Shown here: piece after piece, positions 47,360-50,623 of the stretch
Numbering within the stretch: position 1 is the first letter of the stretch
Layout: every line of letters starts with the position of its first letter
Source: Octopus vulgaris
Taxonomy: Eukaryota
Reading direction: 5' to 3'
DNA length: 64,000 nucleotides
NCBI GenBank assembly: GCA_951406725.2
Contig: OX597823.1
Coordinates: forward strand, 116,126,001-116,190,000
Notes under the pieces: generated by a model
Seen by the model: only the letters and a program-made list of their open reading frames with translations
The model's database searches: none
Told to the model about the DNA's origin: nothing
Made by a program: the position numbers and the translations under genes

Positions 47360-47625
47360 ATCATCATCATCATCATCGTTTAGCGTCTGCTTTCGATGCT
47401 AGCATGGGTTGGACGGTTCAACTGGGGTCTGGGAAGCCAGAAGGCTGCACCAGGCCCAGTCTGATCTGGCAATGTTTCTACGGCTGGACGCCTTTCCTAA
47501 CGCCAACCACTCCGTGAGTGTAGGGAGTACTTTTATGTGCCAGACGAGGCCGGCAAACGGCCACGATCGGATGGTGCTTTTTACGTGCCACTGGCACGGA
47601 GGCCAGGCAAGACTGGCAACGAGTT
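47360..47625 (-). mobile_element. Family D retroposon
   Basis: Reverse-complement family D 3' end. Confidence 0.85.
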
Positions 47626-48187: not shown

Positions 48188-48250
<63 letters not shown>

Positions 48251-48290
48251 TAAATAAATGGAGTTGGACGCAGATATTATTCAAATTCTT

Positions 48291-48382
48291 TTACTTTGGA
48301 CATATGTTTCGAAGACAACATTGGTTTTATTCCAAAGGAATAAACTGTGTAAAATAATGCAATCTTCTCATCAGCAAATAAT
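48291..48382 (-). ncRNA. Type I hammerhead ribozyme motif (Penelope-type, palindromic stem III)
   Basis: Minus strand: uuauuug-CUGAUGA-gaagauugcauu...aauguugucuuc-GAAAC-auau-GUC-caaaguaa. Core is canonical; stem I uuug/caaa (extendable past a bulge); predicted cleavage between 48299 and 48298. Confidence 0.8.
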
Positions 48383-48401
48383 GTCTTGTTGAGATAGATT
48401 C

Positions 48402-48500
48402 TCTTTCTCTCCTGATGAGAAGATTGCATTGTTTTACACAGTTTATTCCTTTGGAATAAAGCCAATGTTGTCTTCGAAACATATGTCAAAAGTAAAGGAA
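48402..48500 (+). ncRNA. Type I hammerhead motif, inverted partner copy with disrupted stem I
   Basis: CTGATGA at 48412-48418, long stem II, GAAAC at 48476-48480, atat, GTC at 48485-48487; the 5' and 3' stem I strands pair poorly. Confidence 0.65.
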
Positions 48501-48686
48501 TTTCAATAACATCTGCATTCAACTCCATTTATTTACTTATACTACACAAATTACTGCACATTAACCCGAAGTTTCTACCTTTGAATAGGTCGCTACATCC
48601 TTGTTACTTGTGTGAATTTTGCTACCGTGGTAACTGTTTATTGAATTTTCCATGTTAATGGTAAACAAAGGATAATTCATTCATCC

Positions 48687-49411: not shown

Positions 49412-49685
49412 TTACTGGACTGACTCCTTTGCAGGTGGCACGTAAGAAAATGCCATTTCGATTGTGGCCATTGCCAGTACCACCTGACCAGTCTTTGTGC
49501 CACTGGCACGTAAAAGCACCCACTACACTCTCGGAGTGGTTGGCATTAGGAAGGGCATCTAACTGTAGAAACTCTGCCAGATCAAGATTAGAGCCTGGTG
49601 CAGCCATCTGGTTCGCCAGTTCTCAGTCAAATCATCCAACCCATGCTAGCATGGAAAGCAGACGTTAAACGATGATGATGATGAT
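49412..49685 (+). mobile_element. Family D retroposon
   Basis: Matches the family D copies. Confidence 0.85.
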
Positions 49686-49789: not shown

Positions 49790-49834
<45 letters not shown>

Positions 49835-49889
49835 CGGAGATGTACTCGCATAGCAAGTAATTTCATCTGAGATCGTGTGCTGAAACGAA

Positions 49890-50199
49890 AACAATTGCAG
49901 CGTGGAAGGTGTTTATAAGCCATTTAAGAAACACACAAAAGCCGTTCGATTCACTTCAACATTTAAGTTTAATTTGTCAAAATATTTTCGTCGCTAAAAT
50001 CGCGACCTGTTCACTGACAAAGTCCGTGCTGCATCTAAGAAAGTTACTTTCTTAGATGCAGCACGGATTTTGTCAGTGAACAGGTCGCGGATTTTAGCGA
50101 CGAAAATATTTTGACAAATTAAACTTAAATGTTGAAGTGAATCGAACGACTTTTGTGTGTTTCTTAAATGGCTTATAAACACCTTCCACGCTGCAATTG

Positions 50200-50201
<2 letters not shown>
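49890..50201. repeat. Near-perfect palindrome with ~155-bp arms, centre at 50045, inserted in (TA)n
   Basis: aacaattgcagcgtggaaggtgtttataagccatttaag...gcatctaagaaagt t actttcttagatgc...cttaaatggcttataaacaccttccacgctgcaattgtt. Confidence 0.97.
50069..50118 (+). ncRNA. Variant hammerhead-like motif (G3-C8 core); mirror copy on the minus strand at ~49973-50021
   Basis: tttgtca-GTGAACA-g-gtcgc ggatttta gcgac-GAA-aatatt-t-tgacaaa: 7-bp stem I, 5-bp stem II, self-complementary stem III AAUAUU, cleavage triplet UUU. Confidence 0.6.
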
Positions 50202-50242
<41 letters not shown>

Positions 50243-50623
50243 GGACAAACTAAGGTAACAACTTAGTTTGTTCTGAGAATTCGATAATATTTGGCTCGAC
50301 TCATTTTATTTTAATTGTGTATTTACAACTTGCAATGAAATATAATCTGACATTTCAACAATCACAATCACAAACAGTAATATTGGACATCACCATCACC
50401 ATCATCCTTATCCTCATCATCATCATCAACATAGTCTTACTCAACTCTTATTCAGAGTTTCTACCCTCCTAGATGGATCATACATTTAGTTTTTGATTTT
50501 GCTTCTAACAGCTGAATGCTCTTCATAATAATGCCAACAACAACTTTATAGAGTGTGATGGGTGTATTTCATGATGGCACCAACACTGGAGAGGTTACCA
50601 TGTTCTCAACAAGACAAAACTAA

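What the first reader, a model, noticed from the sequence alone, without database searches (positions are those of the whole stretch)
49833..50201. Young palindrome carrying two divergent hammerhead-like motifs with a swapped G3-C8 core
Seen: a ~155-bp-arm, nearly mismatch-free palindrome in (TA)n. Each arm reads outward tttgtca-GTGAACA-g-gtcgc..gcgac-GAA-aatatt-t-tgacaaa, and stems I, II and III all close at hammerhead spacing. The core is GUGAACA instead of CUGANGA, with an extra G after A9 and a UUU triplet. Established: positions 3 and 8 form a tertiary Watson-Crick pair, so C3G plus G8C is a compensatory change, and Penelope-like elements carry minimal hammerheads with palindromic stem III thought to act as dimers. 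Inference: this is a natural core-variant ribozyme of a recently active Penelope-related family, which CUGANGA-based searches would miss.
Basis: partly seen in the sequence, partly recalled or inferred. Interest (0 to 1): 0.85.

Follow-up and report, generated by a model that had tools for sequence, protein, structure and literature searches.

The report
Swapped-core hammerhead in octopus retrotransposon
This palindrome is two back-to-back end pieces of a Penelope-like jumping gene present in thousands of copies, and each piece carries a likely self-cutting hammerhead RNA whose two paired core letters are swapped, a form known from laboratory mutants whose cutting here is untested.

Summary
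Observation confirmed; interpretation largely right but misplaced. The palindrome is an ordinary inverted pair of short terminal-repeat (pLTR) copies of a Penelope-like element with RT, Zn-linker and GIY-YIG ORF; 6,805 genomic sites carry the G3-C8 core. The motif is a homologue of the minimal PLE hammerhead: related elements have, at the same place and with the same anatomy, C3-G8 (6) or U3-A8 (3), and an old sister family also has G3-C8. Rfam misses it. Corrections: the arms lie on opposite strands and a transcript would fold into one 155-bp hairpin, so this locus is no ribozyme pair; the swap is old, not young. Against strict need for cleavage: 236 copies are mispaired G3-G8, and 84 of 98 sampled copies extend 5' of the cut site, many to one start with an extra, likely cap-derived G, so inserted templates were uncut. 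Cleavage is untested (about 55%). I found no natural G3-C8 core in print, but three key papers were unavailable. This scan noted similar G3-C8 motifs in two other genomes (unchecked).

The parts
49792..49832 (.). (TA)n target, left flank
49833..50045 (-). Left arm: 213-nt pLTR copy of the Penelope-like family (family A), ending at the distal of two 3' end sites
   Evidence: 98-99% identical over 213 nt to dispersed copies
49833..49889 (-). 57-nt 'tail' between the two 3' end sites; it encodes the first part of the element's ORF
   Evidence: 49 of 98 sampled copies carry the full tail, 47 stop at the proximal site, 2 in between; continues into the ORF in tandem copy L070
49973..50021 (-). Minimal type I hammerhead motif with G3-C8 core (G3 50014, predicted cut after U17 49980); loop II one base shorter than in most young copies
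50036..50036 (-). Inferred transcription start of the element's pLTR promoter (left arm)
   Evidence: 5' ends of copies pile up here with an extra G; inference
50046..50201 (+). Right arm: 156-nt pLTR copy ending at the proximal 3' end site
50054..50054 (+). Inferred transcription start (right arm), 22 nt before G3 and 58 nt before the predicted cut
   Evidence: inference
50069..50118 (+). Minimal type I hammerhead motif: stem I 50069-75/50112-18, core 50076-82 (G3, C8), extra G 50083, stem II 50084-88/50097-101, GAA 50102-04, palindromic stem III 50105-10, U17 50111
50168..50170 (+). Likely start codon of the element's ORF (about 57 nt after the predicted cut; 49923 on the minus arm); the hammerhead lies wholly upstream of it
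   Evidence: reading frame in tandem copy L070 and matching frame in family B
50201..50239 (.). (TA)n target, right flank

Best explanation
The palindrome is an inverted pair of short pLTR copies of an abundant Penelope-like retrotransposon, and each copy carries that element's minimal type I hammerhead homologue with the 3-8 pair swapped to G3-C8, which likely still cleaves after U17, weakly and only as a dimer or with the element's protein. Shown: element identity, copy number, motif anatomy, homology to C3-G8 and U3-A8 motifs at the same place in related elements, pile-up of copy 5' ends with an extra G. Inferred: transcription starts 22 nt upstream of the core and gives a capped mRNA; the element's RT starts at two internal sites about 146 and 205 nt downstream and copies back to the cap, making thousands of short pLTR copies inserted into (TA)n, often as inverted pairs like this one; templates that were inserted had not been cut. 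The ribozyme therefore would act on the mRNA or on tandem read-through transcripts (removing the cap and 58 nt in front of the ORF, or releasing units), not in making these insertions. At this locus itself it is most likely inert, because a transcript would fold into a perfect hairpin.
For: Element: upstream of the same sequence in other copies lies an 839-aa open frame with RT motifs, a Cys linker and a GIY-YIG-like end (L036); 7 and 4 of 23 aligned homologues match Pfam RVT_1 and GIY-YIG; best homologue is a second family in the same genome, 57% identical. Homology of the motif: 8 of 14 metagenome relatives with a complete ORF end and at least 150 nt of tail have the motif 90-400 nt behind the ORF, 5 with C3-G8 and 3 with U3-A8, with no 3-8 pairing demanded by the parser; the sister family B has C3-G8 (with C at 9); control 3 hits in 295,721 nt of reverse strands. 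On 14 hand-picked motifs the 3-8 pair holds in 14 of 14 rows (CG 8, GC 4, GU 1, UA 1), stem II 91% paired, 0 of 500 shuffles as high. Old sister family A2 has G3 in 12 of 24 and C8 in 21 of 27 rows, G8 in 0, with a changed stem I pair, loop II and stem III. Laboratory data: C3G/G8C partly restores cleavage of a PLE hammerhead, which needs the protein, and uncut RNA is the main insertion substrate (PMC11167929); the G:C swap is the only rescuing double change in this region (PMC9901934). Templates: 84 of 98 copies extend more than 3 nt 5' of the cut site, 40 end within -5..+8 of one position, 2 end within 3 nt of the cut; 15 of 22 flank junctions at that position have a G that read-through copies lack (12 of 19 after removing duplicates and one inverted junction; background 12%; p about 3e-7). 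Whole palindrome folds as one hairpin, -271 kcal/mol.
Against: No cleavage assay or raw RNA reads. 236 copies have the mispaired G3-G8 core, about ten times the ~20 expected from a control C, scattered over older subfamilies and in both arms of 4 of 7 palindromes, so likely dead cores were propagated. Another old family shows U3-G8 and C3-A8 subgroups and family B has C9, so the core is under loose constraint in this genome. The A-U-only stem III duplex is worth only -0.2 kcal/mol and unconstrained co-folding of two motifs does not give the active dimer; U17 sites and PLE minimal hammerheads are known to be slow (PMC4209133 for the latter; U17 from recall). The 14-row alignment was hand-picked and its rows are related. 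6 of 14 metagenome tails gave no parsed motif.
Confidence: 0.68

Rival explanations
1. The motif is a catalytically dead hammerhead relic kept for another job (promoter element, RT-binding or folding signal in the 5' UTR); the G3-C8 state is drift or reflects that other job.
For: Inserted templates are uncut; G3-G8, U3-G8, C3-A8 and C9 states occur in amplified groups; the motif lies 15-65 nt behind the inferred start, where Penelope has its internal promoter (PMC2377424 passages); cleavage is dispensable for insertion in vitro (PMC11167929).
Against: All other core positions, G10.1-C11.1, A15.1-U16.1 and the stems are kept across families whose flanks differ; all 10 parsed family motifs have a Watson-Crick 3-8 pair in three different forms; the youngest clade is C8 in 25 of 25 rows and G8 never has the youngest loop (0 of 34 against 20 of 72).
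Confidence: 0.25
2. The palindromic locus itself is a functional unit in which the two motifs work together as a ribozyme pair.
For: Arms are nearly identical and both motifs intact.
Against: The motifs are on opposite strands, so one transcript holds only one sense motif and folds into a 155-bp hairpin; 12 of 60 randomly placed copies have a second, inverted motif within 300 nt, and inverted 5'-truncated copies are typical of PLE insertions (PMC8557442).
Confidence: 0.03
3. The resemblance to a hammerhead is chance in the terminal repeat of a MITE or other DNA transposon.
For: Inverted repeat in a TA target; no Rfam hammerhead match; modest folding z-score.
Against: Copies are colinear with an RT/GIY-YIG ORF, mostly single-armed (48 of 60), and canonical hammerheads stand at the homologous place in relatives.
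Confidence: 0.02

Closest known systems
Minimal type I hammerheads (min-HHR) of metazoan Penelope-like elements (Cervera and de la Pena 2014, PMC4209133; read parts 1-2 of 4 and searched 2 supplementary files, one further file not searchable)
   Same: Location in the pLTR, extra nucleotide between 9 and 10.1, G10.1-C11.1, palindromic stem III, mostly solitary or opposite-strand copies; a covaried core (U3-A8) is already reported in Schistosoma PLEs.
   Different: Core pair is G3-C8; inserted nucleotide is G where their supplementary consensus has H; stem I is longer (7 bp); no octopus entry in the supplements searched.
Poseidon element PAc of Anolis (Frangieh et al. 2024, PMC11167929; read parts 1-2 of 4)
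   Same: Two internal RT start sites that define an optional tail, AT-rich targets, uncut RNA as insertion template, hammerhead near the ORF start.
   Different: There G3-C8 is an engineered double mutant; here it is the natural state. Tail is 57 nt rather than 30-40; the motif is wholly upstream of the likely start codon; the protein has a Cys linker.
EN+ PLEs with a Zn-finger linker, Nematis and Neptune clades (Craig et al. 2021, PMC8557442; passages and one supplementary part)
   Same: RT, Cys linker, C-terminal GIY-YIG; tandem and inverted insertions; microsatellite targets.
   Different: By eye the short linker resembles the Nematis rows of their Fig. S2 more than the Neptune rows; no tree with reference elements was built.
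Natural U3-A8 hammerheads (Perreault et al. 2011, PMC3088659; section 8 read)
   Same: Natural compensatory change at the 3-8 pair.
   Different: They report U3-A8 only; G3-C8 is not mentioned in the passages and section read.

Membership tests
Penelope-like elements (EN+) | Single ORF with RT and C-terminal GIY-YIG endonuclease | tested here: met
   839-aa open frame in L036; homologues match RVT_1 (7 of 23) and GIY-YIG (4 of 23); the query itself has no Pfam match at E<0.1
Penelope-like elements (EN+) | pLTRs from tandem organisation, inverted truncated copies, optional tail | tested here: met
   pLTR runs into ORF start in L070; 12 of 60 copies inverted pairs; two 3' end classes 49 and 47 of 98
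Nematis versus Neptune clade | Placement in an RT tree with reference elements | tested here: inconclusive
   Cys linker present; length resembles Nematis by eye; tree held no named references
PLE minimal type I hammerhead | Stems I and II around U4 G5 A6, A9, G12 A13 A14 with G10.1-C11.1 and A15.1-U16.1 | tested here: met
PLE minimal type I hammerhead | Literal core CUGANGA | tested here: not met
   GUGAACA in the window and in most of 6,805 G3-C8 sites; hence filed as a variant
PLE minimal type I hammerhead | Watson-Crick pair between positions 3 and 8 | tested here: met
   G3-C8; covaries with C3-G8 and U3-A8 in relatives; exception 236 G3-G8 copies
PLE minimal type I hammerhead | Palindromic stem III and NUH triplet | tested here: met
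   6-nt palindrome and UUU; palindromes of other sequence in relatives
PLE minimal type I hammerhead | Position in the pLTR | tested here: met
Hammerhead ribozymes | Site-specific self-cleavage 3' of position 17 | not testable with these tools
   Only assembled contigs were available; genomic 5' ends show no pile-up at the cut
Rfam hammerhead families | Score above a covariance-model threshold | tested here: not met
   no hammerhead match at E<=10; the canonical-core motif at 48412 was missed too

The most novel reading that the evidence does not exclude
This is a natural, active G3-C8 hammerhead kept through two octopus PLE families, and it serves as a decapping switch on the element's own mRNA; the co-amplified G3-G8 copies are a natural dead control, and the capped, uncut 5' ends of thousands of copies show in vivo that PLE hammerheads regulate expression instead of preparing the insertion template.
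Probability: 0.3. Interest if true: 0.72.

Novelty: new variant of a known kind. Interest (0 to 1): 0.5.

Why it matters
It completes, in nature, a core swap that I found in print only as an engineered rescue, shows that hammerhead surveys built on CUGANGA or Rfam models miss thousands of motifs in one animal genome, and offers a ready set of natural alleles (G3-C8, G3-G8, C3-G8, U3-A8) for the open question of what PLE hammerheads are for. The palindrome itself is ordinary transposon debris.

Tried and rejected
RNA evidence: no RNA holder listed; four runs of contigs were laid on the pLTR-ORF junction; they cover the motif in four coded organism labels but cannot show ends, strand or cleavage. 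Dimer modelling by co-folding gave a non-catalytic fold; the program cannot represent the active dimer well. G3-G8 as one ancestral subfamily: not supported, 18 changes for 27 G8 rows on a poorly resolved 149-column tree, 95 of 110 rows kept; origin unresolved. A tight stem II pattern for family A2 found 1 copy only. No ORF was found within 1.5 kb of any A2, family C or canonical-core copy tested, so their link to PLE proteins rests on pLTR similarity. A strict scan demanding A9 found no motif in 30 family B loci; the C9 motif was seen by eye in L042 and L043. The cluster of 5' ends at +15 is partly an alignment artefact of a subfamily indel. Solved-structure search gave only weak RT matches. 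Literature: searches for natural G3-C8 found only engineered uses; Lunse et al. 2016, Seehafer et al. [quoted passage not shown] MITE origin and a functional two-arm ribozyme were rejected (see rivals).

Full report
Observation. The sequence is as described. The arms (49890-50045 and 50046-50201) differ by two substitutions and one base over 156 nt, the left arm has 57 more bases, and both ends abut (TA)n. Read outward, each arm gives a 7-bp stem I, GUGAACA, one extra G, a 5-bp stem II opened by G10.1-C11.1, GAA, a palindromic six-base stem III and U17 (50111 on +, 49980 on -). A window-wide scan allowing any Watson-Crick 3-8 pair returned only these two sites. Rfam lists no hammerhead there at E <= 10.

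What it is. A search of the own genome (2.8 Gb) with one arm gave 684 candidates, the best 40 at 98-100% identity. Thirty fetched copies share 3' ends in (TA)n and extend variably upstream. Longer stretches hold an 839-aa open frame with RT motifs, a Cys linker and a GIY-YIG-like end (L036); among 23 aligned homologues 7 match Pfam RVT_1 and 4 GIY-YIG, the query itself none. The best database homologue is named as an Octopus vulgaris protein (57%) and is a second young family in this genome (family B); in the protein tree A and B are sisters with SH-aLRT 100. The element is thus an EN+ Penelope-like element with a Zn-finger linker; the short linker looks by eye like the Nematis rows of Craig et al., which I did not test with a tree. 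Inverted truncated copies, a tail at one end and microsatellite targets are described as typical of PLEs (PMC8557442), and 12 of 60 copies taken in genome order have a second inverted motif within 300 nt. The palindrome is therefore routine.

Is the motif a hammerhead homologue? Exact-pattern counts in the shared stem context are G3-C8 6,805, G3 with another base at 8 434, non-G at 3 with non-G at 8 241, C3-G8 12. The 12 are other families with the same stem letters and partly similar pLTRs. Family B has the motif at the homologous place with C3-G8 and C9. Of 14 metagenome relatives with a complete ORF end and at least 150 nt behind it (of 36 loci examined), 8 have a parsed motif 90-400 nt after the ORF: 5 C3-G8 and 3 U3-A8. 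The parser demanded the extra G and A or C at 9, but no 3-8 pairing; it gave 3 hits in 295,721 nt of reverse strands. On 14 hand-picked, related motifs the 3-8 pair is kept in all rows in four forms, and stems covary beyond 500 shuffles and slid controls. An old sister family (A2, copies about 75% alike) has G3 in 12 of 24 rows, C8 in 21 of 27 and G8 in none, with other stem I, loop II and stem III letters, so the swap is old. The motif lies upstream of the likely start codon, so coding does not explain it. In the laboratory, C3G and G8C each abolish and the double change partly restores cleavage of a PLE hammerhead (PMC11167929), and this swap is the only rescuing double change in the U-turn region in a full pairwise scan (PMC9901934). 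The extra base after A9 and the palindromic stem III are standard for PLE hammerheads, and U3-A8 is already known in them (PMC4209133).

Results against a strict requirement. 236 copies have G3-G8, more than C8-to-T and C8-to-A together (198) and about ten times the roughly 20 expected from a neighbouring control C (152 changed, 13 of the first 100 to G). They occur in older subfamilies only (0 of 34 with the youngest loop against 20 of 72), do not form one clade on a weak tree, and fill both arms in 4 of 7 palindromes. Another old family has U3-G8 and C3-A8 subgroups. The stem III duplex is very weak (-0.2 kcal/mol).

How it most likely works. I sampled 98 copies by a downstream anchor, in genome order, and mapped their 5' ends: 84 reach more than 3 nt beyond the predicted cut, 40 end within -5..+8 of one position 22 nt upstream of G3, 2 end at the cut (both arms of one A/T-rich palindrome) and 12 after it. 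At that position 15 of 22 flank junctions have a G where 34 of 35 read-through copies have C or T (12 of 19 after removing duplicates and an inverted junction, p about 3e-7). Copying of the mRNA cap as an extra G is recalled knowledge from other retroelements; Penelope has an internal promoter in its pLTR (PMC2377424 passages). The 3' ends fall at two sites 146 and 205 nt after that start (47 and 49 of 98), matching the two internal RT start sites of PAc; the window's right arm uses the first and its left arm the second. The inference is that short copies are cDNAs of the first 146-205 nt of a capped, uncut mRNA. This explains thousands of pLTR-only copies against 49 candidates for the ORF's 5' part. 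A working hammerhead would then remove the cap and 58 nt ahead of the ORF, or process tandem read-through RNA, as a dimer or with protein help; this step is inferred, at about 55% for any cleavage. At this locus a transcript would hold one sense motif inside a 155-bp hairpin (-271 kcal/mol), so the locus is likely inert. An array of 8 direct G3-C8 units, 166-192 nt apart, exists elsewhere and could pair in cis.

Novelty. Searches of the paper library found G3-C8 only as an engineered change; Perreault et al. report U3-A8 as the natural covariation. Three papers that could hold a natural case were not available. Papers seen: PMC4209133 parts 1-2 and supplement search; PMC11167929 parts 1-2; PMC8557442 passages, supplement search and one part; PMC3088659 passages and section 8; PMC6765202, PMC3884650, PMC2377424, PMC9901934 passages; PMC2920678 part 1; bioRxiv 10.64898/2026.07.22.740005 part 1. 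This scan holds two unchecked notes of G3-C8 motifs behind PLE RTs in other genomes, seen after my reading was formed. Verdict: a new natural variant of a known kind, well supported by comparison, untested in activity; interest 0.5.

Noticed in passing
window 48245-48541: A second PLE-type palindrome (137-nt arms, 91%) whose arms carry a canonical CUGAUGA hammerhead core (48412 on +), a long stem II, palindromic stem III and GUC triplet; related copies occur in 7 fetched loci. Rfam reports it only as a miRNA-like hairpin.
   Followed up: partly
G000, e.g. L203, L248-L273: 236 copies with a mispaired G3-G8 core, about tenfold over the mutational control, only in older subfamilies; origin unexplained.
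   Followed up: partly
L455:5632-6950 (G000 C28): Tandem array of 8 direct pLTR units with G3-C8 motifs, 166-192 nt apart, resembling a non-LTR retrozyme array; next to an inverted G3-G8 copy.
   Followed up: partly
L038-L067: Family B: a young sister PLE with many open frames of up to about 1,312 aa and a C3-G8 hammerhead with C at position 9; C9 also in metagenome locus L099.
   Followed up: partly
L335-L364: Old family with T or C at position 3 (15 and 12 of 28 rows) and G or A at 8 (18 and 9), apparently as U3-G8 and C3-A8 subgroups.
   Followed up: partly
pLTR 5' junctions, e.g. L442, L450, L256: An extra G at the common 5' end of copies, likely the copied mRNA cap.
   Followed up: yes
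window 47363-47543 and 49503-49685: Two inverted copies of another dispersed repeat (84-86% complementary) about 2 kb apart, enclosing the second palindrome.
   Followed up: no
window 50241-50277: Short hairpin-like inverted repeat directly after the right (TA)n flank.
   Followed up: no
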